Below are positions 1,752-17,591 of a stretch of DNA of 64,000 nt, in pieces. Under the pieces are notes generated by a model that was not told the DNA's origin, did not search any database, and saw only the letters and a list, made by a program, of their open reading frames with translations. Made by a program: the position numbers and the translations under genes. Every line of letters starts with the position of its first letter. Positions within the stretch are counted from its first letter, which is position 1. Source of the stretch: an uncultured Candidatus Saccharibacteria bacterium (GTDB lineage: Bacteria > Patescibacteriota > Minisyncoccia > Phycocordibacterales > UBA918); NCBI GenBank assembly GCA_964402035.1, contig CAYOAM010000002.1:106111-170110 (forward strand). Direction: 5' to 3'.

Positions 1752-4514
1752 CTACCGCCCTATGTCGTAGAGGCGTTTTATTTCGGTTGCAGAAAGTGCA
1801 CGGTTGTAGATCCGTACATCGTCCAAATTACCATTAGTAATGTCGCTGCTTCCCGTGCGACCTCCTATAAAGAGACTCTCGCTTGTAGTTCTGAGGGCTT
1901 CATTTTCTGTGCTATGGAGCGTAAGCGATTGACCATTCCAATATAGTGCACCCGTGCCAGAACTCGATATATATGTCGCACAAAGATGATGCCATGTATT
2001 TAAGGTAAACGGACGAGGATCAGTGTTCTGCTTTACGTCTAAGACAGTATTGGGCGCTACGTAGGTTGCTCCTGTGTTAAAAACTAGAGCTTCATCTACC
2101 CCAATCGTATTAAACTCAAAAACATAATTGCCCGTATTAGCTGTACTTGAACGAGCGATAATATCTTGCCAACCTGCGGTAGCATTATTTCGACTCGTTC
2201 TTCTATATACCCAAGCACAAATAGTGATCTCGCTTGAAGGTGCAATACCCGTACCTGCATTAATATAATCGTCAACGCCATCAAACTGAATCGCTTGCCC
2301 TATTTTCCCCGGCACTGTTGTTGATGCATGATTTCCCCAATCACTGCGTGTCGTACTCTTTTTATTAATAATCTCGCCAGTTGTTGAACTCGTATCCACA
2401 TCTAAGCCATCAAAAGTCGTATAATACATGAGACCAGTTTCTAGAGACGTATTTGCTCCTGCCATGGACGTGTTCACTTTTGCGGTAGCACCGATAGCGT
2501 AGAGGCGATTGACTTCGTCTGAAGAGAGAGCGCGGTTATAAATACGAACATCATCAATATTTGCATTTGAATAATGGACAGGAACATCATTGTATCCGCT
2601 ACCAACCAAATAGGTCCCCGTATTTACACCTGTTGTTATGCTTAGTGTGGATGAAGCTAATACACCATTTCTATAAATCTTCAAATTTGTCAGGTCATGT
2701 ACCACTACAATATGCTGCCACTCATTTACAGCATAAGTTGTGTCAGCAGCCTTCGCAGTGTTATCCCAATTGTAAGCCCAGATACGATTTATAGTACCAT
2801 AATTTGTCGATGTACCAACCATGATGCCAAAATATCCCGCATCATCCATAATTAGCGGACTTAAACTGTATATATTTGATGCGGTCCTTCCATAATCTAA
2901 GGGATATACCCAGATCGCAATCGTTTTCGCTCCGGATCCAAGCTGAGCAATTGTTCTGTTGGTTGAAACATAATCATTTACGCCATCAAACTGGATTCCC
3001 TGTCCTATTTTTCCAGGCACCGTTGTTGTTGCGTGATTGATCCAATCTCCACGAGTGGTACTTTTCTTGTCGATAATTTCACCTGTCGTAGAACTCGTAT
3101 CAACATCAGCTCCATCGAACGTCCAGTGCCCCACGAGTCCATTTTCCAAAGCGGTGTTTGCCCCACTCATAGAAGTATTGATTTTCGAAGTAGCGCCGAC
3201 TTGGTAGAGACGTTTGATTTCGTCAATAGATAGCGCACGAGTATAAATCCTAAAATCGTCTATTGATCCAAGAAAAGAAGTACTCGTATCACTCACGAGA
3301 GAAATGAGCAGCGTACCGCTCCATGTACCAAGGCCAGAGCTTGAGGACCTTTCCACACCATCTACATAGAGTTTGATCGTATCAGCCGTCGTGTCCCACG
3401 TGGCGACGACGTGCGACCATGTACTTGTACCGATAGCGCTCACGGGCGTCGTCGCTTCATCGAGTGTCCCGCCACGTACGTGCACATACGACCACCGATC
3501 ATTGAAATTGTCGTAGTTCAACGATAAATAATTAGATATATCGGTAAATATCGTGAAAACGTTCTTGTCAGTGGTAATGGAGTCTGCAAAATCCCGTTTC
3601 ATCCACAATGCGATGCTACCGGTATTAGTATTTACCGCACTATTCACCGAACTTATGTCAAGACCAGTTTCAGTGCCTTCAAAATACACAGCACTACCAA
3701 TCTTTCCTACAGCATCAATCACCGCATTTTGTGGTATTGCGGTATATCCTTTGCCTGTGTGGTCTTTGTAGCCATCAGAATAGACGATCACGCCAAGCTG
3801 ATTTAGATCAAAGTCTCGGGACGTCGACGAGTCAGCATCTGGCATTATTTTCACCCGGAAATTTGCATTGCTCAGTTCTGACGTCGACCACGTACGTCCC
3901 CATTTGTAGAAACTACTCCCATAGAAATCTACTTGGTCAGTTATTCCAAGATCTGCAGAACTTTCTGCAGCTGTCCAACTCGTACCACCATCCCACGAAA
4001 GAGCAATACAAAACAGATTATTCCCTGTGGCGCTATCCACCTTGCCGACCGTAAACAACTGAATACCTTTAATAGGATCGTTCGATGTTACCGATGACAC
4101 CGATATATTAAAATCTTGAAACACATGTTGATCATCTTCGCTTTGCGGAAAGGTTCCACAACCGTCAACGGAAGTTGCAGAGCCAGAATTGGTATCTCTC
4201 ATATAACCCGTATCAAGGACCGCAGCATCCAACAGCCCTGTACCCGATGTAGTTTCAAACCCATTATTATCACCCGCACCTGAAGATACGGAAGAACTGG
4301 CGGTCGTGACAAGGGTCGCATTGCTCGATGTTGCATGCCCTCCGTCAAATGACCAATACGCAATTAATCCATTTTCGAGATTGGGATTAGAGCGAAGGGA
4401 TTGACTGAAAATAAGTATCGCGCGAGATGCGAGTGGATATGCACCAATGATAACCATGGCGATAACACCGAGGATGACGAGTTTGAGGTGGGTTTTGAGG
4501 AAGGTTTTGAGCAT
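1752..4514 (-). CDS. Secreted or membrane-anchored protein with three LamG / concanavalin-A-like lectin jellyroll domains.
   Basis: The motif DD[VF]RIY[NT]RALS..E[IV][KN]RLY recurs three times, the LamG_3-type signature. The hydrophobic N-terminus (MLKTFLKTHLKLVILGVIAMVIIGA) makes the start at about 4514 more plausible than the track start at 4589. Confidence 0.7.
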   Translation of the reverse strand: MLKTFLKTHLKLVILGVIAMVIIGAYPLASRAILIFSQSLRSNPNLENGLIAYWSFDGGHATSSNATLVTTASSSVSSGAGDNNGFETTSGTGLLDAAVLDTGYMRDTNSGSATSVDGCGTFPQSEDDQHVFQDFNISVSSVTSNDPIKGIQLFTVGKVDSATGNNLFCIALSWDGGTSWTAAESSADLGITDQVDFYGSSFYKWGRTWSTSELSNANFRVKIMPDADSSTSRDFDLNQLGVIVYSDGYKDHTGKGYTAIPQNAVIDAVGKIGSAVYFEGTETGLDISSVNSAVNTNTGSIALWMKRDFADSITTDKNVFTIFTDISNYLSLNYDNFNDRWSYVHVRGGTLDEATTPVSAIGTSTWSHVVATWDTTADTIKLYVDGVERSSSSGLGTWSGTLLISLVSDTSTSFLGSIDDFRIYTRALSIDEIKRLYQVGATSKINTSMSGANTALENGLVGHWTFDGADVDTSSTTGEIIDKKSTTRGDWINHATTTVPGKIGQGIQFDGVNDYVSTNRTIAQLGSGAKTIAIWVYPLDYGRTASNIYSLSPLIMDDAGYFGIMVGTSTNYGTINRIWAYNWDNTAKAADTTYAVNEWQHIVVVHDLTNLKIYRNGVLASSTLSITTGVNTGTYLVGSGYNDVPVHYSNANIDDVRIYNRALSSDEVNRLYAIGATAKVNTSMAGANTSLETGLMYYTTFDGLDVDTSSTTGEIINKKSTTRSDWGNHASTTVPGKIGQAIQFDGVDDYINAGTGIAPSSEITICAWVYRRTSRNNATAGWQDIIARSSTANTGNYVFEFNTIGVDEALVFNTGATYVAPNTVLDVKQNTDPRPFTLNTWHHLCATYISSSGTGALYWNGQSLTLHSTENEALRTTSESLFIGGRTGSSDITNGNLDDVRIYNRALSATEIKRLYDIGR

Positions 4515-4575
4515 ACGTTTTTTAGGATGTGTATCCCAAGGACCGTCCTTGGGATTGCTGCCTGGTCTCAACAAT

Positions 4576-7500
4576 TTATCCTCCATCACCGCTCTCCGGA
4601 GCAGGCTCAGGCGATGGTTCTGGTGATTGTTCAGGAGCTGGCTCAGGGTCCGGTACTGGTTCGATCACCGGATCTCCTCCTTCTGGAGGCACATCTTCCG
4701 CAGGTGGAGGAGGATCAATAGGTGGGTCATTTGGGATCTCTTCTACCACAGGGCGAACGACCACACACTCTCCCGCCACCGTCTTTGTCTCTCCGTTTTC
4801 AATCGAGAGACAATACGGTTCGCCCGTTGCTTCGTCATAGAGCGTAATACCGGTACGCTTCTCACTTGTACCGACCGTGAGTGTGTCGGCAAAGAGGCCT
4901 TTGAAGTATGCAACACCATTTTCTATAGTGATACCAAGATCATGGAGTACACCCAAGACTCCCGAACTGCCCACTGCTGCCCCACCGCCCGCAAGCAGAG
5001 TCTCTAAACTCACGACACGAGTCTCGAGGCTATCGACCTTGAGTGAAAGTGCTTGTGTGGCAGCGATATTGAAAGTAGCCAGTTTGTATATATCGACACC
5101 TTTTCCATCTGCTGAGAGGACGGCCGAAGGTGCTTCCTCCGCAATGAGACCAAGGCGCAACGGCGCACTCTCCTCTTCTGTATTGTATCGATACTGCGCT
5201 ACCTGTATATTTTTTAAGTCTGCAATTATAGCATCAGTGGTTGACGCACTGATATGCGTAATGTCTTTCTTGGCACTCTCGGTTGATACGTTTACAAAAG
5301 ACTGTGCCGCAACATCGCCAACCACCTGCAGTGCATATTGTGGTGATGTGGTGCCGATACCAATGTTTCCTGATACTGGATCAATGTAAAAATCATTGTC
5401 CGCAAAACGATGCGTGTAGTTCAGGAAGACATCAATGGTTGAAGTTGAAGTTGTCGCAAATGTCTCAGCATCAAGTGCAAAACCGATAATCACTCCTGTT
5501 GAAGTTGCACGAGCAGCGTAGCCTGGTTCGCCGCCAACAGAGATCGGATCACCGATAGCAATAACGCCACCCTCGTTGCTTACCCGTACTGGTACGCGTC
5601 CAGCAAGAGCCAATGGGATTTTTGCTTCTGCTGTAACATCATCGGTAAATCCTCCAAGCAGAAGTCCAGGATCCGATGAAACCACGCCCGCAAAACGGGT
5701 ACTTGTGGTACTTGCAACTGCCGTATCAAAACGAGACACGTGTCGAGCATGATCCGGATCAAACATCACAACTTCACCTTTTTGCAGCGTAAGGTCAGTA
5801 CTCAAGTACACTTCAGCCAAATCCAAGCCCGCAAGCGAAGAGCCTTCGGCATAGACAAAACCACGCGTGCGCGCCGACGATGCACAGGTGTTGCCTGCAC
5901 CATTGTCGACACAAAGTGCTCCGTCTGCGATAAGTACCGAGCCGTATGGCACGTTGGTCGAATCAAGTACCGTGTTGGTCGATGTACCAAAAACAGAGCG
6001 AGCTTTCTGGAGCGCACCGGAGCCATTGGATTGTCCATAGATCGTGAAGAGCTGATTGCTATCTATCTGTGCCGAGAATGACTGCACAGCGCCCGATGTT
6101 GATGATGCACTGATCGGCAAATTGATCCAACTGAGTACCCCTGCATCATTTTCAAATTCTATTGGACCCGTGTTCAAACGTTCTATATACGTATTGTTTG
6201 CCACCGGATCATACGTAATTGCCCCACTGTATACATCAAGCCCGGTATTGATCGATGTTGTCGCCATCGAAATACTAAACTTTGTTGATGTCGCAGAATA
6301 ACTATCCGTCGATGTGCCAATTGAGAACACACCACCAAGATTTGAGATGAGCCAGTTTTTCATGTTGGTACCTGCATCAGTGTCGGTGAGTGCGAGGTAT
6401 GGTGTTGAAGAGGCAATATTGAGTGTCCAATTTGGCGACGATGTACCAATACCAACATTGCCACCATTGAGGACAGTCATACGGAGACTTGACCCTGCGT
6501 TTGTATAGAAGTTGATCGCCTCACTTGCTCCCGTACCAGAGGTAAGTGATAAATTATCACTTGCGGTCACACTTAGGTTGGTGAGACCAAAGACTCCACT
6601 CGCATCAAAAGAGCTGTAGTTTGTCCCTCCATCATTCATAACCACAACCAACGGATCCGAGGCACCATTAAATACGGTGAGATCAACGTTGTCTACACTC
6701 GCATCACCCACCACAAAAACCGGTACATTAGTTCCATCATTTTCAGGGAGAATTAAGTTCAATCGATTTGCATCTGCATCCGCCGTCTCCCAGACAAACT
6801 TCGCATCGGCGCTCGTGCCAAGACTACTGTACTGATCGTCGGGTAACTGGAGTCGAGTGGTTGGATTACTCATGCCCAAACCAACATTTCCCTCTTGCGT
6901 AATCGTAAATCGTGATGATGTTGCCGTGAGTGCATCAGATGAGGTACCGATACTGAACACCCCACCAACATTTGAAAGCAACCAGTGTTTTTGATCTGTC
7001 CCCGCATCAGTATCGGTGAGCGCAAAGTAGGCACTTGTTGAAGCAACCTGGAGGGTCCAGTTTGGTGTCGTGGTGCCAATACCAAGACTGCCAGACGAGA
7101 GCGTACCCTGTGTGCCGTTTATATTTGTGCCAAACAATATATTTCCGATATTGAGCGTATTTGTGGCAAGTGCATTTGGTGCATCAATATCATACCCAAG
7201 CACGATATTGTTTGAACCGCTGGTAAGATTGTTGCCAGCGCCATATCCAACGAGCACATTATTATTCCCTGTCGTGTTTCCAGATCCAGCTAAAGTACCA
7301 ATAAATACATTATTCTGCGATGCTGTGACACCAGAAACACCCAGTCCTGCACCATACCCAACAGCGACTGTTGCAGTTGCGGATCTGTTTAAATATAGTG
7401 CTGCTGCACCAATTGCGACAGAATTTGCTCCTGATGTACTTCGTAGCAAAGCATCCCAACCGACTGCAGTATTAAAGGTTCCTGTTGTATTACTGTTCAG

Positions 7501-10500
7501 CGCACCATACCCATTACCAGTATTGTATGTACCAGTTGTGTTACTTGAGAGAACGAAGGCCCCGCTCGCTGTATTATAATTACCGCTTGTATTATTCAAT
7601 AATGCATTAGTACCGACAGCAGTATTATTACTACCCACCGTATTACTAAAAAGTGCATTCGTACCAACAGCAACACTGTAAAAACCAGTTGTATTGAAGG
7701 TTAATGTGTTGTAGCCTACCGCCGTATTTTCAATTCCATTTGTGTTGTTTCGTAGTGCATTGTCGCCAATTGCTACATTCTGAATACTTGAGGTGCTGGT
7801 ATAGAGCGCATTTGATCCAATAGCAATATTGCCGTCTTGTTTTCCACCCAACGTCAGTATTGGTATACCTGAGATATCATTAATCGTAAACGCACGACTT
7901 GTCGTACTAATTTCCTTTATAGAAACAGAATCAAGTGCCCACGCAGATGTATTTGCAACAGTATTCCCGGTAAATGTAATGGTCTCTGTACCCGTTACTC
8001 CTGAATCAAACGTGACGGTTGATGTACCAGCACCAAAGGGTCCCCAATTCTGATATGCATTTACACTTGGTGACAAAAAGTACGTCACTTGCTCACGGGT
8101 GGTTGAAGAAATATTTAAGGTAAGTTGGTAGGTCTTTCCTGCAACAACTGCAAATGTTGTTGAGGCACTCGAACCAGTACATCCGGAGACGTTTGATACG
8201 ATATTGCCCGCACTCCATGCGACACACGCGCCCAGGTTCCAGCTACTTGCGTCCGTATCAAAATTGCCATTCGTGATAAGTTCGCTTCCGTACGTTGGCG
8301 TATCACTATTGATCGACAGTTTTGCAGTTGGTGTTGTGCTACCAATACCTACTCGGCCAGTATTTGTAACCGTAAATAGACTGCCGTCAACATTTGCAAG
8401 GTTGAAGATATCACCCGTTCCCAGCTGTGTTAAGTTTGCCAACGCTACCGACGTTGAGCCAGTCATTGTAAGGAGGCTATACCCAACTTCGCCTGGAGTA
8501 TCGAGTGTGATGCGATTGGTCTCAAGATAGCGAGTGTTGGTACCCCCATCAGAAATGCGCTCGGCTCCTGGGCCAGAGTAGCGATTTCCTGAAAGCGTGT
8601 TGTCGGTACTACCTGCAAGGAATCCTGAAATTTCAATAGCATATCCGGTGCCCTCAAAGTCAGTAATTTGGTTATTACTAATGATATTTTGATCACCCAG
8701 CAAGAAAATGTTGCTATCCGCCGAATTTCCAGCGGCATTATATATGACATTGCCATCAATCACACTATCACTCATACCAAAAGCTGAGATAGCACTCCCT
8801 GTCGTACTACTAATACTATTTCCCCTAATCGTAATTGCTCTAGGTGGTGTAAATGAGTAATCTACAGCAATACCACTACCTGCTATATACGCAAGGATGT
8901 TATCGGTAACCATCACCTCTCTCGAATCTTCACCAATCTTAATGCCGTCAAATGCAACACCTGAAATATTATTGTGGGACACATCGGCACCAATAAGTTG
9001 TGCCGCATCTACACCACGCACACCCGAGCCGCGTATCGTGTTGCCGCGCACCATAAGGCCATAGGTATACTGTCCAACGTTTGCACTGCCAGCATAAATA
9101 GACCGATCCCCTGAGTCTATAATCTGATTGTCGATAATCCGCACATTGTTTGCTTTCACTCGCACTGCGGCGCTATTTGACCCACCAAAATCTTGTACAT
9201 AAAGATTTTCAATGGTCGAACTTGCGGATCCCTCATTAAAATACAGCCCATCCCAGCCTTGAGAGACATGGTGATTGTGTATATTCCCGTCCATGCTGAG
9301 GTTTGAAACTCGCACATATGGAGCGACCGAATAGATCGCATAGTTGTTTACTGAATCAGAGAGTGTTGAAGAAGCTACGACTAACTTTGTGCCATTCCCC
9401 GCTCCGATCATTGTGGTGCCCGTTGCCAAAACGATCGAAGCACTTTCTGAAGTTGAAATTCTCGTTGAAGTTCCAAGATAATAATTTCCCTCAAGAAGGT
9501 AGACAATACCACCATGCGTTGAAGATGCATTTCCCGCTACATACGCAGCATTGATAGCGCGATTAATCTCAACCTCGTCACGAACACCATCTGCTATATA
9601 ATCAGCTTTTTCCTTGTTATTCGAGTCAGACGCAGCAACGATAAAAGTTGCCGTACTCCTGTCTCCCTGCCACGTTCCAGATGCGTACGTGTACATCTGC
9701 CCGCGATCAGTCCTAAAGTACATGGTGCCTTCTAGCGGACTAGTCGGGAAAGAAGTGCCGCCGATGATGCGGATTGTTGAAGACGCCACTAGATAGGTGG
9801 TCGTCGCGTTTTGTGTCACTGTGGATGCAAACGAGACGTTGCCTCCAAAACTTGGATTGGTGTTAAACACAAGTGAACCAGTGCCTGTTTCATCTCCCAA
9901 GATTGAAAGAAGTTCGGCTGATGTATCAATCGAGGTACTTCCAAGCTTGTTGCCAAAGATCGTGAAGTCAGAGGACGTCAAAAGACCAAGTGCATTAATG
10001 CTACTTGCCTGAGGGATATTGAGCGTATGAATGTTACTACCAGATGAAAATCCAAAGCCACCATCACTCGAGGTTGTTGCAAAGATCTGTGTAGCTCCCG
10101 TCTGGCCATTGAGCGACGTGAGCGCTGTTGCAGGAAGACACGTGCCATTCATGGCAAAACAGCCAGTCGCGATATCAATGCCGTTTCGTGCTGTTGTTGA
10201 TCCCGTATTTGAAATACTAAAAAGTGTCGTTGTCGCTGTTGCTGTCGAAGAAGCAAGGGCAAACAGTGTCGTGCTGCCATAACTGGCAGGAGTATGAATG
10301 GCAAAGCGCGCTGACGGAGAGGATGTACCAAAACCAATACTGCCTGATTGACCATTGATCCTAAATTGCTCGGTCACGACTGGTGTGATGTTTGCAACAC
10401 GAACGACAAAATCGGCAGACGTATCCGCAGAACGAATGACAGCGATTTCACCACGTCCTTGGGTAGCGGCTGCCGTCGTACTATTTATGAAACGTAACGT

Positions 10501-13500
10501 GCTTGCGGTACCTGCGGAAGCGCCATTGGAACGTAATGAAAGCAATCCCGTCTCAGTACCAGCAGCACCACCAACAACTTCCATTTTAGTGTTTGCTGCG
10601 GCGGTACCAAAGCCTACAAAACCATTATTGGTTATGCTCAATAATGATGTGGTGGCGGTAAGCGCGTCGCTTGAAGTCCCAATAGAAAAGGTACCGCCAA
10701 GATTTGAGAGTAACCAATGTTTATTGTCGGTACTTGCATCGATGTCTGAGAGCGCAAGATATGGAGTACTTGAGGCTACTTGCAGCGTCCAATTTGGCGT
10801 TGTTGTTCCAAGTCCAAAATTGCCGAGCGATGTAAGTCGCGCCATTTCTACCAAACCTACCGTTGCACTATTTTTTGTTGAAAATGTGAGCGCTGATTGT
10901 GGTGTTGCAATTGCAGTATTGGTAAACACCGCAGCAATGCGTGCAGTCGCCGTTGCATTTAATCCGGCGTCTTGTGTTGAGAATAATAAACCTGTCCCGA
11001 TGCCAGCCGCTGGTGCAGTTCCTGTTGCGCTGTGTGAAATCTGCATCACGTCCGCAATACCATTAAAGGTACTGTCGGTAATATTGGCATTTAACGCATA
11101 GATATTTGCGAGTGATGTTGAGCTTGCTTTGCTAAAACTTCCTTGCCCCGTCACCAACAACCCGCCATCACCAACATTTAAGCCCCCGTTGATGTATGCA
11201 TTGTTATCGACAACAAGGTTTTCGGCAATATTCACCTGATTTGCTGCGAGAGCTCCAATATTTGCTGCAGGCACATCTATTCCACCGATATCAAAAATGC
11301 GTAGTCCAGCACTATCGTCTGCCACATACGCAAATTTTCCAGCTACATAGGTTCCGAGCGCTGAGCCAACAGTGTCATACGTACCAACCTGATATGGTGC
11401 AGTTGCAGATGCGACATTGATAACAGAAATTCCCGATGCGCTATCGGCAATATACGCATATTTTCCCGTTACATAGATACCGTTTGCGGTACCAGCGGTG
11501 TCAAAATTGCCAACAATAGCAGGCTGCGAAGGATCCGCTACATCAATAATCTGAAGACCAGAACCACTATCAGCGATATATACATATTTACCAGCTTGTG
11601 CGACAGCAAGAGAGGAACCTGACGTATTTGTGGTACTTGCAAGCGTCGGCGAAGACGGATTTGAGATATCAATAGTTTGGAGACCTGCGTTTCCATCCGC
11701 AACGTAGGCGTATTTCCCGTTTACCACAACACCATTTGCAATACCAGACGTATTGAATGTGCCTGCGAGACGAGGAATAAATGGATTGCTGATATCGAGT
11801 ATCTGCAGACCGGCAGACCCATCAGCCACATACGCATACTGACCAGAAACATACACGCCGGATGCGAGACCGGGAGTGTTGTATAGGCGTGCCAAGCGTG
11901 GTGCAAAAGGATTACTGATATCAATGATTTGGAGACCAGCAGTATCGTCAGCGACGTACGCATATTTTCCCGCAACATATACGCCATACGAAGTACCTGA
12001 AGTGTCGTACGTACCCAGTAATGTCGGTAGATCGGGATTTGAAATATCAAAAATCTGGAGACCGGATGCGCTATCTGCGACATACGCGTATTTTCCTGAA
12101 ACAAATACCTGTCGTGCAAGTCCCAAAGTGTCATACGTACCCAACGGAATTGGATCACCTTGCGTTTGCACGAGAGTACCAGCATGCACCAAAATTTTTG
12201 TGGATGTCGCCACGTCGGTCGTTGTCGTGCCAATCGTGAGCTTGCCCCCCAGGTACATATTGCCGGTAGTCGTCGCCCCACCATTGATCGTAAGTCCAGT
12301 CTGCTGTGTACCACCACCAATTGTTGAAGACCCGACAGCCAATAGTGACGGCGCACCAAGTACCGTCCCATCAAATGTGAAGCCTGCATTTGATGTGAGC
12401 GTGTCGGTATCGGACCAATACGCGATACGGTTCGTATCACCCGATCCATCAATTGTTGAACCTGCACCAACACAGACATTGTTTACCGCAAAACAACCAG
12501 AAGCAATGTTGATGCCATTTACCGCAGTACTTGTTCCAGTACCCGTGACTGAAAATGAACGCGCAAGAGTTGTGGAGGAATTGGTAATACTAAAGAGTGA
12601 CGAGGTAGTAGTGAGATCATCACTCGAAGTGCCAATCGAGAAAATACCGCTAAGATTTGAAAAGAGCCAGTGTTTTTGATTTGTACCCGCATTGGTGTCG
12701 GTGATTGCAAGGTATGGAGTCGTTGACGCAACTTGCAGTGTCCACTGTGGTGTTGAGGTGCCAATACCGACATTCACAGCGTTACTACCTAACGCACCAA
12801 GTACCAATGCATTACTAATCTCAACAGCCGCATTGGCGCCGATAGCGGTTGCATTGTTGAGACTTGTCGCAATGCTCGATGCATTGGCTCCCAAGAAGGT
12901 GTTGTTGCTCCCCGATGAGAAAGTATTTCCTGCTTGATATCCGACGCCAGTATTGGTATTGCCTGATGAGTTCGAGAGTGCCGAATTACCAATAGCAGTA
13001 TTTTGATCTCCGGTAACATTACTGCCAAGCGCGCTATAGCCAAATGCACTATTTTCTGCACCATCATCATTTGCTCCAAGACTGCTGTTCCCAAATGCAT
13101 TGTTAAAACCACCAGAAACGTTTGCATCAAGTGCAGCACGTCCAAAAGCGCTGTTTGATTCGCCACTTTGGTTTGCATAGAGCGTTCCTTCTCCAAAGGC
13201 GCTATTGCTACCTCCCGCCGAATTGTATGTATACAATGCATTGTGACCAAACGCGGTATTGAATGCTCCCGTGGTATCGGATCTTAATGCGTTGAATCCA
13301 AAACCAGTATTCTGACCATTGGTCGATTTATTAAGTCCCGCACCAAGACCAGCAAACATACTTTCATTTTCAACAATTGAAAATACGGCCGCTTGATTGT
13401 ATGTCAAGATTTCTCCCGAAGAAGCATTGAAGTTTGTCGCGGTCGTAGTACCATTCACTGCGAGTCTGGTGATCGGCGTCGTGGTACCCACCCCCACATT

Positions 13501-14190
13501 TCCTCCATCGAGTACGGTAAACACTTCGGTTGCTCCATCAAAAATATTTAAAATATCTCCAGTACCACTTTGCGTGATCGTAAGTAGTGTCGAAGCAGAT
13601 GTACTTGCAAGTGAAGTCGACGTGTCACTTCGCAAAAATTGTGAAGACGTCAGTCCATCAAGACGATCTGCTTCAAAGGCGGCAGGAACGGTTCCTAAAA
13701 TTTTGCGTGGAGACATTTCCCCATCCCAACTTGGTGAGCCAGCAGAACCACCAACTTCAATACCCAGATACAGCGTTTGATTAAAATCGACTGATGTTAG
13801 CGCAGTACTACTTCCAAGCATCACACTAAAAAGTCCATTCCTAACTGTGATGCGATCTCCAGCCGCTGTACTTCGATCCTCGGTCCATACTGCAGTAGTT
13901 GTCGCGGCAGTCGGAGATGCGAGCAACCAGAATCGCATATGGTATGTTCCATCAGCAACCGTGACACCACCAGCATTCGTTAACTTGCCCTGATAATTTA
14001 TTTGAAAATTAGGCGCAGCTTCTGTTTGAGTAAATCCTACAAACACCATGGCAACAAAAAGACTCACAACACATGCAGTGCTGATTAATTTTCTTGCTAC
14101 CCAAGAACGATTTACTTTGTACATACTTAGCTTTTTCGACTGCTCTAAAAAAAGCGCTGCGTATTGCGCTCTCAATATTGTACCGTTCAA
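4576..14190 (-). CDS. Giant multi-domain surface protein of about 3200 aa with tail-fibre-like repeats, an LVIVD beta-propeller, a parallel beta-helix, a CBM-like domain and a C-terminal peptidase S74 intramolecular-chaperone domain.
   Basis: There is one uninterrupted 9.6-kb ORF. The N-terminal signal or TM segment is KLISTACVVSLFVAMVFVGF. The track start at 14190 is a TTG, and an ATG at 14124 (MYKVNRSW...) is the more likely start. Domain signatures are itemised in the sub-features below. Confidence 0.85.
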   Translation of the reverse strand: MNGTILRAQYAALFLEQSKKLSMYKVNRSWVARKLISTACVVSLFVAMVFVGFTQTEAAPNFQINYQGKLTNAGGVTVADGTYHMRFWLLASPTAATTTAVWTEDRSTAAGDRITVRNGLFSVMLGSSTALTSVDFNQTLYLGIEVGGSAGSPSWDGEMSPRKILGTVPAAFEADRLDGLTSSQFLRSDTSTSLASTSASTLLTITQSGTGDILNIFDGATEVFTVLDGGNVGVGTTTPITRLAVNGTTTATNFNASSGEILTYNQAAVFSIVENESMFAGLGAGLNKSTNGQNTGFGFNALRSDTTGAFNTAFGHNALYTYNSAGGSNSAFGEGTLYANQSGESNSAFGRAALDANVSGGFNNAFGNSSLGANDDGAENSAFGYSALGSNVTGDQNTAIGNSALSNSSGNTNTGVGYQAGNTFSSGSNNTFLGANASSIATSLNNATAIGANAAVEISNALVLGALGSNAVNVGIGTSTPQWTLQVASTTPYLAITDTNAGTNQKHWLFSNLSGIFSIGTSSDDLTTTSSLFSITNSSTTLARSFSVTGTGTSTAVNGINIASGCFAVNNVCVGAGSTIDGSGDTNRIAYWSDTDTLTSNAGFTFDGTVLGAPSLLAVGSSTIGGGTQQTGLTINGGATTTGNMYLGGKLTIGTTTTDVATSTKILVHAGTLVQTQGDPIPLGTYDTLGLARQVFVSGKYAYVADSASGLQIFDISNPDLPTLLGTYDTSGTSYGVYVAGKYAYVADDTAGLQIIDISNPFAPRLARLYNTPGLASGVYVSGQYAYVADGSAGLQILDISNPFIPRLAGTFNTSGIANGVVVNGKYAYVADGNAGLQTIDISNPSSPTLASTTNTSGSSLAVAQAGKYVYIADSGSGLQIIDVADPSQPAIVGNFDTAGTANGIYVTGKYAYIADSASGISVINVASATAPYQVGTYDTVGSALGTYVAGKFAYVADDSAGLRIFDIGGIDVPAANIGALAANQVNIAENLVVDNNAYINGGLNVGDGGLLVTGQGSFSKASSTSLANIYALNANITDSTFNGIADVMQISHSATGTAPAAGIGTGLLFSTQDAGLNATATARIAAVFTNTAIATPQSALTFSTKNSATVGLVEMARLTSLGNFGLGTTTPNWTLQVASSTPYLALSDIDASTDNKHWLLSNLGGTFSIGTSSDALTATTSLLSITNNGFVGFGTAAANTKMEVVGGAAGTETGLLSLRSNGASAGTASTLRFINSTTAAATQGRGEIAVIRSADTSADFVVRVANITPVVTEQFRINGQSGSIGFGTSSPSARFAIHTPASYGSTTLFALASSTATATTTLFSISNTGSTTARNGIDIATGCFAMNGTCLPATALTSLNGQTGATQIFATTSSDGGFGFSSGSNIHTLNIPQASSINALGLLTSSDFTIFGNKLGSTSIDTSAELLSILGDETGTGSLVFNTNPSFGGNVSFASTVTQNATTTYLVASSTIRIIGGTSFPTSPLEGTMYFRTDRGQMYTYASGTWQGDRSTATFIVAASDSNNKEKADYIADGVRDEVEINRAINAAYVAGNASSTHGGIVYLLEGNYYLGTSTRISTSESASIVLATGTTMIGAGNGTKLVVASSTLSDSVNNYAIYSVAPYVRVSNLSMDGNIHNHHVSQGWDGLYFNEGSASSTIENLYVQDFGGSNSAAVRVKANNVRIIDNQIIDSGDRSIYAGSANVGQYTYGLMVRGNTIRGSGVRGVDAAQLIGADVSHNNISGVAFDGIKIGEDSREVMVTDNILAYIAGSGIAVDYSFTPPRAITIRGNSISSTTGSAISAFGMSDSVIDGNVIYNAAGNSADSNIFLLGDQNIISNNQITDFEGTGYAIEISGFLAGSTDNTLSGNRYSGPGAERISDGGTNTRYLETNRITLDTPGEVGYSLLTMTGSTSVALANLTQLGTGDIFNLANVDGSLFTVTNTGRVGIGSTTPTAKLSINSDTPTYGSELITNGNFDTDASSWNLGACVAWSAGNIVSNVSGCTGSSASTTFAVVAGKTYQLTLNISSTTREQVTYFLSPSVNAYQNWGPFGAGTSTVTFDSGVTGTETITFTGNTVANTSAWALDSVSIKEISTTSRAFTINDISGIPILTLGGKQDGNIAIGSNALYTSTSSIQNVAIGDNALRNNTNGIENTAVGYNTLTFNTTGFYSVAVGTNALFSNTVGSNNTAVGTNALLNNTSGNYNTASGAFVLSSNTTGTYNTGNGYGALNSNTTGTFNTAVGWDALLRSTSGANSVAIGAAALYLNRSATATVAVGYGAGLGVSGVTASQNNVFIGTLAGSGNTTGNNNVLVGYGAGNNLTSGSNNIVLGYDIDAPNALATNTLNIGNILFGTNINGTQGTLSSGSLGIGTTTPNWTLQVASTSAYFALTDTDAGTDQKHWLLSNVGGVFSIGTSSDALTATSSRFTITQEGNVGLGMSNPTTRLQLPDDQYSSLGTSADAKFVWETADADANRLNLILPENDGTNVPVFVVGDASVDNVDLTVFNGASDPLVVVMNDGGTNYSSFDASGVFGLTNLSVTASDNLSLTSGTGASEAINFYTNAGSSLRMTVLNGGNVGIGTSSPNWTLNIASSTPYLALTDTDAGTNMKNWLISNLGGVFSIGTSTDSYSATSTKFSISMATTSINTGLDVYSGAITYDPVANNTYIERLNTGPIEFENDAGVLSWINLPISASSTSGAVQSFSAQIDSNQLFTIYGQSNGSGALQKARSVFGTSTNTVLDSTNVPYGSVLIADGALCVDNGAGNTCASSARTRGFVYAEGSSLAGLDLAEVYLSTDLTLQKGEVVMFDPDHARHVSRFDTAVASTTSTRFAGVVSSDPGLLLGGFTDDVTAEAKIPLALAGRVPVRVSNEGGVIAIGDPISVGGEPGYAARATSTGVIIGFALDAETFATTSTSTIDVFLNYTHRFADNDFYIDPVSGNIGIGTTSPQYALQVVGDVAAQSFVNVSTESAKKDITHISASTTDAIIADLKNIQVAQYRYNTEEESAPLRLGLIAEEAPSAVLSADGKGVDIYKLATFNIAATQALSLKVDSLETRVVSLETLLAGGGAAVGSSGVLGVLHDLGITIENGVAYFKGLFADTLTVGTSEKRTGITLYDEATGEPYCLSIENGETKTVAGECVVVRPVVEEIPNDPPIDPPPPAEDVPPEGGDPVIEPVPDPEPAPEQSPEPSPEPAPESGDGG
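4579..4750 (-). other. Pro/Glu-rich low-complexity C-terminal tail of the giant protein (PNDPPIDPPPPAEDVPPEGGDPVIEPVPDPEPAPEQSPEPSPEPAPESGDGG).
   Basis: Direct translation. The tail lies distal to the S74 autoproteolytic domain and would be released if self-cleavage occurs. Confidence 0.6.
5010..5330 (-). other. Peptidase S74 / intramolecular chaperone auto-processing domain (endosialidase and tail-fibre type) inside the giant protein.
   Basis: The segment STESAKKDITHI...LRLGLIAEEAPSAVLSADGKGVDIYKLATFNIAATQALSLKVDSLETRV matches the S74 consensus (SDERLKxNI ... GfIAQEvEEv.PE.V ... dG...v.Y..L.plLieAiKEL). A coiled-coil-like stretch follows. Confidence 0.65.
6301..6456 (-). repeat. Intragenic repeat module, copy 4 (GIGTSSPNWTLNIASSTPYLALTDTDAGTNMKNWLISNLGGVFSIGTSTDS).
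   Basis: It is one of four copies of a 150-nt, 50-aa module of consensus G[IL]GT[ST]TPNWTLQVAS.TPYLA[IL]TDTDAGT[ND]QKHWL[LF]SNLGG.FSIGTSSDALTAT. I verified it by reverse-complement translation. Confidence 0.8.
6935..7086 (-). repeat. Intragenic repeat module, copy 3 (LGIGTTTPNWTLQVASTSAYFALTDTDAGTDQKHWLLSNVGGVFSIGTSSDALTATSS).
   Basis: Same module as copy 4, verified by translation. Confidence 0.8.
7200..7710 (-). repeat. Second block of NT..G..AL-type short repeats (tail-fibre or phage-fibre-like: NTAVGYNTLTFNTTGFYSVAVGTNALFSNTVGSNNTAVGTNALLNNTSGNYNTASG...).
   Basis: Direct translation. The periodicity of about 13-15 aa also shows up in the antisense ORF 7070-7579 of the track. Confidence 0.6.
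8550..9300 (-). other. Right-handed parallel beta-helix (PbH1 / pectate-lyase-like) region of the giant protein.
   Basis: Repeated motifs NNQIIDSGDRSIYAGSAN, GNTIRGSGVRGVDAA, SHNNISGVAFDGIKIG, TDNILAYIAGSGIAVD, IRGNSISSTTGSAISAF and DGNVIYNAAGNSADSNIF have PbH1-type spacing. Confidence 0.6.
10664..10815 (-). repeat. Intragenic repeat module, copy 2 (GLGTTTPNWTLQVASSTPYLALSDIDASTDNKHWLLSNLGGTFSIGTSSDALTATTS).
   Basis: Verified by translation. Confidence 0.8.
11270..12150 (-). other. LVIVD-type repeat (beta-propeller) region, about eight repeats of YAYVAD..(A/S)GLQI(I/F)DISNP..P.
   Basis: Translated repeats such as GKYAYVADSASGLQIFDISNPDLPTLLGTYDTSG, GKYAYVADDTAGLQIIDISNPFAPRLA and GQYAYVADGSAGLQILDISNPFIPRLAG. 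Confidence 0.65.
12622..12775 (-). repeat. Intragenic repeat module, copy 1 (GIGTSTPQWTLQVASTTPYLAITDTNAGTNQKHWLFSNLSGIFSIGTSSDDLTTTS).
   Basis: Verified by translation. Confidence 0.8.
12840..13320 (-). repeat. First block of NT..G..AL-type tail-fibre-like short repeats (NTGFGFNALRSDTTGAFNTAFGHNALYTYNSAGGSNSAFGEGTLYANQSGESNSAFGRAALDAN...).
   Basis: Direct translation. Confidence 0.6.
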
Positions 14191-16582: not shown

Positions 16583-16594
16583 AGATTTGACGCT

Positions 16595-17584: not shown

Positions 17585-17591
17585 ACCTGTA

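What the first reader, a model, noticed from the sequence alone, without database searches (positions are those of the whole stretch)
4576..14190. 3204-aa giant surface protein built like a phage tail fibre / tailspike, with a C-terminal S74 autoproteolytic chaperone
A single 9.6-kb ORF combines these parts:
- a signal or TM N-terminus;
- two blocks of NT..G..AL short repeats typical of phage fibre stalks;
- about eight LVIVD beta-propeller repeats;
- a parallel beta-helix, as in polysaccharide lyases and depolymerases;
- a CBM-like segment (ELITNGNFDTDASSWNLG);
- a peptidase-S74 intramolecular-chaperone domain (STESAKKDI...GLIAEEAPSAVL...DGKGVDIYKLATFNIAATQALSLKV);
- a coiled-coil and a Pro/Glu-rich tail.

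S74 domains normally drive trimerisation and self-cleavage of phage endosialidase and tail-fibre proteins. A chromosomal, non-prophage giant protein with this architecture suggests a trimeric, self-processing, glycan-degrading or glycan-binding surface fibre. In a small-genome episymbiont-like organism it could act in host attachment or predation. No phage structural genes lie nearby.
Basis: partly seen in the sequence, partly recalled or inferred. Interest (0 to 1): 0.8.

Follow-up and report, generated by a model that had tools for sequence, protein, structure and literature searches.

The report
Giant self-cleaving phage-like surface fibre
A 3,182-residue secreted protein of an ultra-small (Patescibacteria-type) bacterium is built like a phage tail fibre, carries two different self-cleaving folding modules in a row, sits in a conserved chromosomal locus next to pilus-like genes, and is a strong candidate for the fibre these bacteria use to grip their hosts.

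Summary
There is one intact minus-strand ORF (4576-14190; likely start ATG at 14124, 3,182 aa). It has a signal peptide, two blocks of 17-residue phage-type repeats, seven LVIVD repeats, an AlgE/NosD-type beta-helix, and a Peptidase_S74 domain with its Ser2947/Lys2952 dyad. A Pro/Glu-rich tail closes the protein. The "CBM" segment has no profile support. The AlgE catalytic motif is absent from the beta-helix.

- A beta-tulip domain homologous to the phi29 gp12 Peptidase_G2 auto-chaperone lies just before S74 and keeps that family's D-x-A-E motif. Two different self-cleaving chaperones therefore sit in tandem.
- An unnamed two-Cys module follows S74.
- The gene lies in a locus syntenic across Patescibacteria, after a distant Pam-pilus-like cassette. 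Two of those neighbours occur fused to the N-terminus of homologous giants elsewhere.

The closest solved relatives by sequence are the Bdellovibrio MAT fibres and MYRF ICA. There is no prophage context, and the N-terminal domain is absent from viral contigs.

Best reading: a trimeric, self-processing host-adhesion fibre. It is a new variant of a known kind. Trimerisation, cleavage and adhesion are inferred, not shown.

The parts
4576..14124 (-). Giant fibre gene, 3182 aa plus stop. The longest ORF extends to a TTG at 14190.
   Evidence: (P0001 identical)
14014..14124 (-). Signal peptide or signal anchor, residues 1-37 (MYKVNRSWVARK + 19 hydrophobic residues + TQTEA|A)
   Evidence: The only KD>1.6 segment in the protein. 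Sequence.
13600..14013 (-). Conserved N-terminal beta-sandwich domain (about residues 38-175; INYQGKL...NGLFSVMLG...DGEMSPRK)
   Evidence: Present in 57 of 120 homologues. AF2 pLDDT >90. No PDB fold match, no phage match and none in viral contigs. 427 loci among GTDB species genomes; the best 80 are almost all Patescibacteria.
12805..13335 (-). 17-residue repeat block 1 (residues 264-440, 9 copies)
11266..12153 (-). Seven LVIVD repeats (residues 658-953), a predicted 7-bladed beta-propeller
   Evidence: Pfam PF08309 E 1e-71, 7 stretches. 42-aa self-similarity.
8425..9657 (-). Right-handed parallel beta-helix (residues about 1490-1900), AlgE A-module/NosD type
   Evidence: Pfam Beta_helix and NosD. 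Profile against PDB: AlgE6 and AlgE4 at E 1e-18 and 4e-17, plus NosD. AlgE catalytic motif not conserved.
7870..8277 (-).
   Evidence: No Pfam hit at E 10. No local homologues.
7189..7830 (-). 17-residue repeat block 2 (residues 2099-2312)
   Evidence: PHROG 6002 and 4636..
12565..12783 (-). Repeated ~70-aa module M, copy 1, containing a capping-loop motif. Copies 2-4 lie at 10627-10839, 6892-7098 and 6250-6483.
   Evidence: 63-76% pairwise identity among the copies. Nine [VILF]G[VIL]G[TS]xxPxxxLx[VIL] motifs. These motifs align to the Bd3182 and Bd2133 capping loops.
5410..5823 (-). Beta-tulip domain homologous to the Peptidase_G2 auto-chaperone (residues 2768-2905). D2768-L-A-E2771 lies at the position of phi29 gp12 D692-F-A-E695. 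Putative cleavage is L2767|D2768.
5287..5409 (-). Last capping-loop segment (residues 2906-2946; GNIGIGTTSPQYALQVVGD)
   Evidence: Aligns to 8ojn, 8ond and 7dc3.
4990..5286 (-). Peptidase_S74 intramolecular chaperone (residues 2947-3045). Ser2947 (codon 5284-5286) and Lys2952 (5269-5271). Ends in a long helix.
4750..4947 (-). Unnamed conserved two-Cys module after S74 (residues about 3060-3125; GITLYDxxTGEPYC...G.C)
   Evidence: 2348 cluster representatives at E<=1e-3, placed near the C-terminus in nearly all of the 150 listed. It follows S74 in 101 of 101 proteins that have both.
4579..4749 (-). Pro/Glu/Asp-rich low-complexity tail (residues 3126-3182)
1752..4586 (-). Downstream gene overlapping the giant's stop: a 944-aa membrane-anchored protein with three LamG (Laminin_G_3) domains
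   Evidence: A LamG gene also follows the giant in L086.
14262..15833 (-). Upstream gene: a 523-aa protein with signal peptide, FN3 domains and a C-terminal TM helix (PamR-like architecture)
   Evidence: Orthologues are syntenic. Residues 2-475 occur fused to the N-terminus of giants P0262, P0011, P0002, P0013 and P0064.
15830..18296 (-). Pam-pilus-like cassette: a 250-aa PamT-like protein (15830-16582), a 329-aa secreted protein with a C-terminal TM helix (16595-17584), and a 234-aa paralogue of the 250-aa protein (17592-18296)
   Evidence: NCBIfam CPR_pilus_PamT at E 5e-9 (ours) and 2e-13 (L086 orthologue), both far below the curated cutoff. Synteny and 40-47% identity to L086 and L087.

Best explanation
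The gene encodes a Sec-exported surface fibre of a Patescibacteria (probably Paceibacteria-type) bacterium. It is built on the same plan as phage tail fibres and the Bdellovibrio 'mosaic adhesive trimeric' (MAT) fibres.

Proposed mechanism; every step is inferred from homology unless marked as shown:
1. Three chains are registered from the C-terminus by two intramolecular chaperone modules in tandem. The first is a phi29-gp12/Peptidase_G2-like beta-tulip (residues 2768-2905). The second is a Peptidase_S74 domain (2947-3045). Both modules, their motifs and their fixed order are shown.
2. The triple-stranded shaft then zips up towards the N-terminus. The shaft consists of the 17-residue repeats and nine capping-loop modules.
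3. The chaperones remove themselves by autoproteolysis, at Ser2947 (Ser-Lys dyad) and possibly at L2767|D2768 (the D-x-A-E motif). This releases a C-terminal piece of 236 aa, or 415 aa if both sites cut. That piece carries a conserved two-Cys module and an acidic Pro-rich tail.
4. The mature fibre would be about 278-296 kDa per chain. It would display three copies each of a 7-bladed LVIVD propeller, an AlgE/NosD-type beta-helix and an unassigned beta-rich segment as lateral ligand-binding lobes, most likely for cell-surface glycans of a host.
5. The N-terminal beta-sandwich domain holds the fibre at the cell surface through the products of the neighbouring genes. These are an FN3 protein with a membrane anchor and a Pam-pilus-like cassette. 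The synteny and the gene fusions that link them to the fibre are shown.

The giant gene is the fast-evolving, module-shuffled member of an otherwise conserved locus, as expected for a host-recognition determinant.
For: Architecture and families.

S74:
- Passes the Pfam gathering score on the C-terminal fragment.
- S-x4-K aligns with the MYRF ICA cleavage motif.
- The motif is conserved as ST[RE]xxKKDI in the closest subfamily.
- Fold matches to the MYRF, T5 and endoNF chaperones.

G2-like domain:
- HMM-to-gp12 score of 27.7 bits against at most 7.3 in 2000 shuffles, with D-x-A-E aligned to gp12 D692/E695.
- Fixed order tulip, about 41 aa, S74, two-Cys module in 31 of 33 and 101 of 101 relatives.

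MAT relationship:
- The profile of the C-terminal region hits Bd2133, Bd3182 and three more Bdellovibrio 'cell wall surface anchor' chains as the top PDB sequences.
- MAT features are taken from PMC10769870.

Extracellular location: signal peptide, five closely spaced Cys pairs and no other TM segment.

Not a prophage:
- Housekeeping and polysaccharide-synthesis neighbours.
- The same locus (Obg-GatB-...-giant-LamG-GAPDH-RpiB-Rpe-Tkt) in other Patescibacteria.
- N-domain absent from 2.9 million viral contigs and from phage genomes.

Coupling to neighbours:
- Synteny and Rosetta-stone fusions.
- PamT-like hits.
- A 2026 preprint notes a 'tail fibre-like protein' co-localising with the pam operon across CPR.
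Against: - No experiment or multimer model shows trimerisation or cleavage.
- The S74 hit is marginal for this protein (23.9 bits) and absent from the whole-protein scan. The motif is S-T-x-x-x-K rather than the usual S-D-x-x-x-K.
- Pfam Peptidase_G2 does not hit this protein at all. The residue before D2768 is Leu, not Ser as in gp12.
- S74 is not at the very C-terminus as it is in phage fibres and Bd3182, so the released piece may do something other than chaperoning.
- Homology of the N-terminal domain to the MAT N-domain could not be tested.
- The Pam assignment of the neighbours rests on sub-threshold hits and on architecture.
- No ligand, host or organism identity is known.
- How three propellers and three monomer-type beta-helices pack around a trimer axis is unknown.
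Confidence: 0.6

Rival explanations
1. Pilus-tip or pilus-borne adhesin. The fibre is not anchored directly on the cell. Instead it is incorporated into, or caps, a Pam-like donor-strand-exchange pilus made by the neighbouring genes.
For: The giant directly follows a cassette with a PamT-like protein, a TM-anchored chaperone-like protein and an FN3-TM protein. In P0003 and P0082 a PamT-like N-terminal segment plus an FN3-like region are fused in front of the fibre N-domain. The preprint reports a tail-fibre-like gene central to pam neighbourhoods.
Against: The Pam hits are far below the curated cutoffs (36 and 50 bits against 240). No Pam pilin model hits the giant. The profile of the small proteins finds nothing in the PDB. 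A 278-kDa-per-chain trimer on a donor-strand pilus has no precedent. The preprint places Pam pilins mainly in Saccharimonadia and Microgenomatia.
Confidence: 0.2
2. Enzyme-bearing fibre. The beta-helix is an active polysaccharide-modifying enzyme (lyase, epimerase or hydrolase) that degrades host capsule or wall, as in phage depolymerase tailspikes.
For: The beta-helix profile matches AlgE6 and AlgE4 A-modules at E 1e-18 and 4e-17, and also NosD. It shares the N-terminal cap motif DG..D...I..AI.....GG.V.L..G.Y. Phage tailspikes with S74 or G2 chaperones are often depolymerases (PMC4690869).
Against: The region aligned to the AlgE catalytic YG(F/I)DPH motif reads DFGGSNSAAVRV in this protein. 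No lyase or hydrolase family hit at any threshold. Only two database relatives, both named NosD-domain proteins.
Confidence: 0.12
3. Structural envelope component (S-layer-like coat or matrix scaffold) with no role in host recognition.
For: Very high Thr/Gly/Ser/Ala/Asn content. It lies next to a large surface-polysaccharide gene cluster. CPR genomes carry many giant surface proteins of unknown role (PMC8080830).
Against: At the syntenic locus the giant differs almost completely between genomes. The best local alignments cover 25% of the query or less (loci). That fits a specificity determinant better than a scaffold. Its closest characterised relatives are adhesins and receptor-binding fibres.
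Confidence: 0.1
4. Prophage or tailocin remnant, or an assembly artefact.
For: Several modules are of phage origin (S74, G2 beta-tulip, PHROG repeats). An IS200-type transposase gene lies about 4 kb downstream.
Against: No capsid, portal, terminase, tail-tube or baseplate genes in about 70 kb. Conserved chromosomal synteny. GC content resembles the surroundings. The identical ORF is on record on three contigs. Internal repeats are only 40-76% identical, so they are not collapsed or duplicated reads.
Confidence: 0.03

Closest known systems
Bdellovibrio bacteriovorus MAT (mosaic adhesive trimeric) fibres, S74 subgroup, e.g. Bd3182 (Caulton et al. 2024, PMC10769870)
   Same: Chromosomal and non-phage. 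A signal peptide is followed directly by a beta-rich N-terminal domain. A long fibre is punctuated by VG.G..P...L capping loops that align directly. The design is mosaic and module-swapped. It ends in an S74 chaperone with an S-x4-K motif. The proposed role is in grasping another bacterium.
   Different: Three times larger (3182 aa against about 1000; the published non-Bdellovibrio examples are 417-1915 aa, none from CPR). It contains a globular LVIVD propeller and an AlgE/NosD beta-helix. It has an extra G2-type chaperone domain before S74 and a two-Cys module plus acidic tail after it. The motif is S-T rather than S-D. It is a monoderm-type CPR protein encoded beside pilus-like genes. N-domain homology is untested.
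Phage tail fibres and tailspikes with a C-terminal S74 intramolecular chaperone (K1F endosialidase, T5 pb1, GA-1 gp12)
   Same: S74 domain sequence (Bacillus phage tail fibres at E 8e-12) and fold. A triple-beta-helix-type segment lies before the cleavage serine. PHROG-type stalk repeats are present.
   Different: Not in a virus. The N-terminal domain is cellular only. S74 is followed by a further 137 aa.
phi29 gp12 pre-neck appendage, C-terminal auto-chaperone (Peptidase_G2, PF11962; PDB 3GQH/3SUC)
   Different: No Pfam hit for this protein. Residue -1 is Leu, not Ser. The domain is internal and is followed by S74. Cleavage is unknown, as is the ATP dependence I recall for gp12 (not checked here).
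MYRF intramolecular chaperone auto-processing (ICA) domain (PDB 7DC3)
   Different: MYRF is a eukaryotic membrane-bound transcription factor. Here no TM segment follows the domain.
'Tail fibre-like protein' of pam (CPR pilus) gene neighbourhoods (Troman et al., bioRxiv 2026, 10.64898/2026.03.03.709456)
   Same: A CPR gene of this description is reported to co-localise with the pam operon. Here the giant follows a PamT-like, chaperone-like and FN3-TM cassette.
   Different: The preprint only names the node and gives no analysis. Its pilins are mainly from Saccharimonadia and Microgenomatia. The cassette here is a distant relative, and its closest relatives are Paceibacteria-type genomes.
AlgE-type mannuronan C5-epimerase A-modules and NosD (CASH beta-helices)
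   Same: Sequence-level homology of the beta-helix and its N-terminal cap (Pfam).
   Different: The AlgE catalytic motif is not conserved. The domain is embedded in a fibre.

Membership tests
MAT fibres (Caulton 2024) | N-terminal signal peptide | tested here: met
   Basic n-region plus a 19-residue hydrophobic stretch plus TEA|A. It is the only hydrophobic segment.
MAT fibres (Caulton 2024) | Conserved beta-rich domain of about 130 aa right after the signal peptide, homologous among MATs | tested here: inconclusive
   A beta-sandwich of about 110-140 aa is present and conserved in 57 of 120 relatives. Like the MAT N-domain, it has no PDB homologue (PMC10769870). No Bdellovibrio N-domain sequence or model was available, because afdb50 was not available on the search machine.
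MAT fibres (Caulton 2024) | Capping-loop motif (V-G-G/N-pi-x-x-P-x-x-x-L) along a beta-helical fibre | tested here: met
   Nine motifs. They align to both Bd3182 loops and to three Bd2133 loops.
MAT fibres (Caulton 2024) | Homotrimeric along its length | not testable with these tools
   Only monomer prediction was available.
Peptidase_S74 / ICA domain | Profile match above the curated threshold | tested here: met
   PF13884 at 23.9 bits against a gathering score of 22 on the C-terminal 400 aa. Not listed for the whole protein. 10 of 16 relatives hit, best E 8e-11.
Peptidase_S74 / ICA domain | Catalytic Ser and Lys five residues apart (S-D-x-x-x-K) | tested here: met
   S2947-T-E-S-A-K2952, aligned to the MYRF (S->A)DLRAK motif. 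Asp at +1 is replaced by Thr throughout the subfamily.
Peptidase_S74 / ICA domain | ICA fold | tested here: met
Peptidase_S74 / ICA domain | Autoproteolysis after trimer folding | not testable with these tools
   Needs expression with and without S2947A, or proteomics.
Peptidase_G2 (phi29 gp12 IMC) | Profile match to PF11962 | tested here: not met
   No hit at E 10 for residues 2636-2946. 2 of 16 relatives hit weakly (E 0.014). The positive control, the gp12 C-terminus, scores E 9e-89.
Peptidase_G2 (phi29 gp12 IMC) | Beta-tulip fold of the gp12 C-terminal fragment | tested here: met
Peptidase_G2 (phi29 gp12 IMC) | Asp and Glu (D692, E695) at the start of the cleaved domain | tested here: met
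   D2768-L-A-E2771 aligns with D692-F-A-E695. D-x-A-E is kept in the first-ranked motifs of 94 family domains, 27 of them with Ser at -1. That these two residues are catalytic is recalled from MEROPS G2 and Xiang et al. 2009, not checked here.
LVIVD beta-propeller | Tandem 42-aa LVIVD repeats | tested here: met
   PF08309 at E 1e-71, 7 stretches.
Polysaccharide lyase / depolymerase beta-helix | Family-specific profile hit or catalytic residues | tested here: not met
   Only the generic Beta_helix and NosD families hit. The nearest solved relatives are AlgE epimerases, whose YG(F/I)DPH motif is absent here.
Carbohydrate-binding module | Any CBM profile hit on residues 1930-2100 | tested here: not met
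   Zero Pfam families at E 10.
Pam pilus locus (Troman 2026) | Operon with pilins, a PamT tip pilin, TM-anchored chaperones and a PamR FnIII-TM protein | tested here: inconclusive
   PamT model at E 5e-9 and 2e-13 but 36 and 50 bits against a cutoff of 240. Pam_pilin_C at E 0.7 for one orthologue. The 329-aa SP+TM and 523-aa FN3+TM proteins match by architecture only.
Prophage / phage tail module | Neighbouring phage structural or integration genes | tested here: not met
   None in the window or its flanks. The locus is syntenic in other genomes.

The most novel reading that the evidence does not exclude
Paceibacteria-type CPR bacteria carry a conserved surface apparatus made of a Pam-like cassette, a LamG protein and a hypervariable giant fibre. 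The fibre is matured by two mechanistically different autoproteolytic chaperones acting in series, a G2-type followed by an S74-type. I could find no description of this arrangement in phage or bacterial fibres. The released C-terminal fragment carries the widespread unnamed two-Cys module and has a function of its own, for example envelope docking or signalling. The fibre would be the main determinant of host specificity in this large uncultured clade.
Probability: 0.25. Interest if true: 0.8.

Novelty: new variant of a known kind. Interest (0 to 1): 0.6.

Why it matters
How Patescibacteria recognise and hold on to their hosts is largely unknown outside a few cultured Saccharibacteria, and almost nothing is known for Paceibacteria. 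This locus offers a concrete candidate.

- **A conserved apparatus.** The locus is syntenic and chromosomal. The pattern scan found the N-domain at 427 loci among GTDB species genomes.
- **A likely specificity determinant.** Its central gene is a module-shuffled, phage-derived fibre.
- **Testable sites.** The predicted processing sites Ser2947/Lys2952 and Asp2768/Glu2771 can be tested in E. coli without culturing the organism.
- **Wider implications.** The finding extends the MAT-fibre idea from predatory proteobacteria to CPR. It suggests a role for the 'tail fibre-like' gene noted beside the new Pam pilus. It also shows the G2 and S74 self-cleaving chaperones combined in a fixed-order C-terminal cassette together with a new conserved module (2348 cluster representatives).

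Tried and rejected
- **Whole-protein scans.** Pfam missed S74, and NCBIfam found nothing on the giant. Only fragment scans recovered S74.
- **Whole-protein phmmer against PDB.** No hits.
- **RNA genes.** No tRNA or Rfam families in the window, so no RNA marker for taxonomy. Exact-sequence look-ups gave no organism names.
- **afdb50 fold search of the N-domain.** This was meant to test identity with the MAT N-domain, but the library was unavailable. Foldseek against PDB gave only weak Ig-like noise.
- **Beta-helix single-sequence PDB search.** Only His-tag artefacts. A database search with the beta-helix plus 'CBM' region returned just two proteins.
- **CBM hypothesis.** Rejected for lack of any profile hit.
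- **Promoter and terminator scan of 1.5-20.5 kb.** Counts at or below chance, uninformative.
- **Profile of the small cassette proteins against PDB.** Nothing.
- **Viral-contig scan with the two-Cys module.** Not possible, because the alignment had no stretch conserved enough to search with.
- **Literature.** No paper in the held library links Patescibacteria with Peptidase_S74. None mentions Peptidase_G2 and Peptidase_S74 together.
- **DGR target.** Considered but not pursued. No reverse-transcriptase family appears among the Pfam annotations of the window's genes.
- **Trimeric autotransporter adhesin.** Not adopted. No Hep_Hag or YadA family hit on the repeat block at E 10, and no C-terminal TM segment.
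Full report
**1. The observation**

The window has one uninterrupted ORF at 4576-14190 on the minus strand (3204 codons from a TTG). The public gene call starts at the ATG at 14124 and gives 3182 aa (MYKVNRSW...). This is P0001, 100% identical, held by the NCBI, ENA and Logan sources and on record on three contigs. Residue numbers below use the 3182-aa protein. GC content matches the surroundings. Internal repeats are only 40-76% identical, so the ORF does not look like a repeat-collapse artefact.

**2. Domain map**

- **Signal peptide.** Residues 1-37 are a basic n-region, a 19-residue hydrophobic core and TEA|A. This is the only hydrophobic segment in the protein.
- **N-terminal domain.** Residues 38-175 form a conserved beta-sandwich. 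It is present in 57 of 120 homologues and has an AF2 pLDDT above 90.
- **Stalk repeats.** Two blocks of 17-residue N-[TS]-A-[VI]-G..AL..N repeats lie at 264-440 and 2099-2312. They hit PHROG 'virion structural protein' and 'tail spike' families at E 4e-45 and 1e-29.
- **Module M.** A ~70-aa module occurs four times.
- **Capping loops.** Nine [VILF]G[VIL]G[TS]xxPxxxL motifs are spread along the chain.
- **LVIVD propeller.** Seven LVIVD repeats lie at 658-953 (E 1e-71).
- **Beta-helix.** A right-handed beta-helix lies at about 1490-1900 (Beta_helix E 4e-14, NosD E 4e-8).
- **Disulfides.** Five closely spaced Cys pairs fit an extracellular protein.
- **'CBM-like' stretch.** The segment at about 1950-2085 has no Pfam hit even at E 10, so that call is not confirmed.
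- **Unannotated fraction.** By my estimate from the coordinates above, roughly 70% of the protein has no Pfam coverage.

**3. The C-terminal cassette**

*S74.* Pfam Peptidase_S74 is found only when the last 400 aa are scanned alone (23.9 bits against a gathering score of 22). A profile of 16 relatives (A2) searched against PDB sequences returns MYRF ICA 7DC3 at E 1.2e-6 over 126 positions. In that alignment S2947-TESA-K2952 sits on the MYRF cleavage motif. The closest relatives conserve ST[RE]xxKKDI. tblastn against phages hits Bacillus phage tail fibres at E 8e-12, in the S74 part only.

The gp12 fragment is Pfam Peptidase_G2, 'IMC autoproteolytic cleavage domain' (E 9e-89). An HMM built from 43 family barrels scores 27.7 bits on gp12 671-854, against at most 7.3 in 2000 shuffles. 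It aligns the family motif sD-L-A-E-x-Y with gp12 S691|D692-F-A-E695-Y-F. Here the motif reads L2767|D2768-L-A-E2771-V-Y. [quoted passage not shown] Pfam G2 itself does not hit this protein. Relatives hit Phage_cement_2, XM1_gp53 and Peptidase_G2 weakly. The domain is therefore a divergent homologue and I do not file it as a member of the family.

*A new module after S74.* After S74 come a conserved two-Cys module (GITLYDxxTGEPYC...G.C) and a Pro/Glu tail. A profile of that module finds 2348 cluster representatives at E<=1e-3 among 1.84 billion. In nearly all of the 150 listed it lies 100-250 aa from the C-terminus, in proteins of 100-6629 aa.

*Fixed order.* Among the 264 proteins in hand, the order tulip, about 41 aa, S74 holds in 31 of 33. 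The order S74 then two-Cys holds in 101 of 101. Four relatives have two S74 domains in tandem.

**4. Relatives and taxonomy**

The whole-protein search found 760 proteins at E<=1e-10, of which the best 120 are listed. These are mosaic giants of 1784-5449 aa. The names that sources give them are Lloyd-, Wolfe- and Adlerbacteria, Minisyncoccia and 'Patescibacteria group', plus Limnobacter. None aligns over more than 25% of the query in one piece.

A pattern scan for the N-domain over GTDB species genomes gave 427 confirmed loci. The best 80 are almost all Patescibacteria, with names such as Paceibacteria, Kaiser-, Nomura-, Yonath-, Zambryskii- and Campbellbacteria. The N-domain has no match in phage genomes or in IMG/VR viral contigs. 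It also has no PDB fold match.

**5. Context**

The contig is 461.7 kb. Genes around the giant, all on the same strand, run in this order:

SecA, a small membrane protein, VTT, Obg, GatB, two HTH_17-like+TM proteins, a 234-aa secreted protein, a 329-aa secreted protein with a C-terminal TM helix, a 250-aa secreted protein, a 523-aa FN3 protein with a C-terminal TM helix, the GIANT, a 944-aa LamG x3 protein whose start overlaps the giant's stop, GAPDH, an IS200-type transposase, RpiB, Rpe and transketolase.

The rest of the window is a surface-polysaccharide synthesis cluster. There are no phage structural genes.

The same arrangement recurs around giant homologues in other genomes:
- L086: Obg-GatB-155-227-330-251-421-GIANT-165-LamG-GAPDH-RpiB-Rpe-Tkt.
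- L087: 227-331-254-460-HTH17-GIANT.
- L085: SecA-...-Obg-GatB-302-244-PemK-GIANT-NYN-second giant.

The small proteins are 29-47% identical between loci. The giant is therefore the variable member of a conserved chromosomal locus.

**6. Functional coupling to neighbours**

Residues 2-475 of the FN3 protein are homologous (E 1e-39 to 1e-68) to the N-terminal ~500 aa of giants P0262, P0011, P0002, P0013 and P0064. In four of these (P0011, P0002, P0013, P0064) the fibre N-domain was located just downstream, at about 560-590. The first ~60 aa of the 250-aa protein head P0082 and P0003. The HTH_17-like N-terminal domain heads P0005, P0062, P0065 and others.

NCBIfam's 'CPR-type pilus protein PamT' model hits the 250-aa protein (E 5e-9) and its L086 orthologue (E 2e-13). 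Both score far below the curated cutoff.

The Pam pilus preprint (10.64898/2026.03.03.709456) describes:
- secreted pilins;
- a PamT tip pilin;
- PapD-like chaperones with a C-terminal TM helix;
- PamR, an FnIII protein with a C-terminal TM helix that anchors the pilus.

It also notes that 'a tail fibre-like protein' co-localises with the pam operon across CPR, without analysing it. The cassette here matches that description by architecture and by one sub-threshold family hit. I treat it as Pam-like, not as Pam.

**7. Closest known family**

The top PDB sequence hits of the C-terminal profile are five Bdellovibrio chains, alongside MYRF: 8OND (Bd2133), 8OJN, 8OL4, 8OML and 8ON4. Caulton et al. 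(PMC10769870) define MAT fibres by four features:
- a signal peptide;
- an invariant beta-rich N-domain of about 130 aa with no PDB homologue;
- meandering trimeric beta-helical fibres with capping loops;
- swappable tips, or an S74 with SDxxxK that self-cleaves (Bd3182 S782).

Their list of MATs from other organisms spans 417-1915 aa and contains no CPR member. This protein meets the features I could test: signal peptide, capping loops and the S74 dyad. Trimerisation and N-domain homology could not be tested.

**8. The beta-helix**

A six-sequence profile matches AlgE6 and AlgE4 A-modules (E 1e-18 and 4e-17), other mannuronan epimerases and NosD. The stretch aligned to the AlgE YG(F/I)DPH motif reads DFGGSNSAAVRV here. 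No lyase or hydrolase family is hit. I therefore favour a binding role over a catalytic one, at low confidence.

**9. Interpretation**

- **Shown:** the ORF, its modules, the motifs, the fixed C-terminal order, the synteny, the fusions, and the absence from phage and viral data.
- **Inferred from homology:** trimerisation from the C-terminus, autoproteolysis at Ser2947 and possibly before Asp2768, and release of a 24-kDa fragment (or fragments of 24 and 18.5 kDa).
- **Inferred from the fusions:** anchoring through the N-domain and the FN3/Pam-like partners.
- **Inferred from the MAT analogy, the hypervariability and the CPR lifestyle:** a host-adhesion role (PMC8080830; PMC11665869).

**10. 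Novelty**

S74-terminated chromosomal fibres are known from Bdellovibrio MATs, and a 2026 preprint mentions a 'tail fibre-like' gene beside CPR pili. I found no description in the held literature of the following:
- the giant CPR architecture;
- the tandem G2-like plus S74 chaperones;
- the two-Cys terminal module;
- the conserved Obg/GatB...GAPDH locus with Rosetta-stone fusions.

I rate this a new variant of a known kind, with interest 0.6.

Noticed in passing
window 14262-18296 (minus strand): A four-gene cassette lies upstream of the giant: a 234-aa and a 250-aa secreted paralogue ending ...YTATTT(L/I)TA, a 329-aa secreted protein with a C-terminal TM helix (weak WxLIP_PGBD hit), and a 523-aa FN3 protein with a C-terminal TM helix. 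It resembles the newly described CPR Pam pilus operon (PamT hit E 5e-9, sub-threshold). It is syntenic in L086 and L087.
   Followed up: partly
window 18377-19099 and 19224-20135 (minus strand): Two proteins carry an N-terminal excisionase/HTH_17-like motif (GYT.DY...L.R.GK....GR.W(F/Y)V) followed by a TM helix. The same N-terminal module heads several giant homologues (P0005, P0062, P0065, P0164, P0228...). This suggests a cytoplasmic HTH-like domain used as a membrane-anchor head in CPR surface proteins.
   Followed up: partly
window 1752-4586 (minus strand): A 944-aa membrane-anchored protein with three LamG/Laminin_G_3 domains starts 11 nt before the giant's stop, so the two are probably co-translated. 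It gives a weak NCBIfam 'TafC family fimbrial protein' hit (E 3e-18, sub-threshold). A LamG gene also follows the giant in L086.
   Followed up: partly
window ~26000-64000: A large cell-surface polysaccharide biosynthesis cluster. It includes Wzy_C, NeuB, CTP-transferases, Glyphos_transf, a Polysacc_synt flippase, and many methyltransferases, glycosyltransferases and aminotransferases.
   Followed up: no
window ~1-505 (minus strand), continuing beyond the window start: An IS200-type Y1 transposase gene lies just beyond GAPDH (locus L002 23620-24294).
   Followed up: no
P0023, P0034, P0054, P0110 (homologues); P0032, P0009, P0076, P0187: Some relatives carry two S74 domains in tandem, about 130 aa apart. 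Others carry two G2-like beta-tulip domains in tandem. Multiple internal self-cleavage sites in one fibre would be unusual.
   Followed up: partly
giant residues 3060-3125 (window 4750-4947); alignment A3: An unnamed two-Cys module (GITLYDxxTGEPYC..I.NG.....G.C) forms a large family: 2348 cluster representatives at E<=1e-3. It lies near the C-terminus in nearly all of the 150 listed and is often followed by Thr/Pro/Ser/Glu-rich tails or Bact_surface_Ig-like domains. It has no Pfam family.
   Followed up: partly
P0014, P0035, P0090, P0097 and about 25 more hits: Limnobacter (Betaproteobacteria) encodes proteins of about 2200-4300 aa, source-named 'tail fiber domain-containing' or 'trimeric autotransporter adhesin'. 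They share the repeats and have an S74 with a canonical SSDRRLK motif plus a constant extension of about 244-245 aa after it. They have a different N-terminus.
   Followed up: no
L081 (JBLHQB010000027.1, 'Patiriisocius sp.' MAG, 10.3-kb contig): A contig binned as a flavobacterium encodes the CPR-type N-domain at 60% identity. This could be mis-binning or horizontal transfer. Caulton et al. list a Patiriisocius protein among the MATs.
   Followed up: no
L085 18851-25831: In the genome carrying P0018, a second giant gene (more than 2859 aa) follows the first after a NYN-domain gene. So some genomes have tandem giants at this locus.
   Followed up: no
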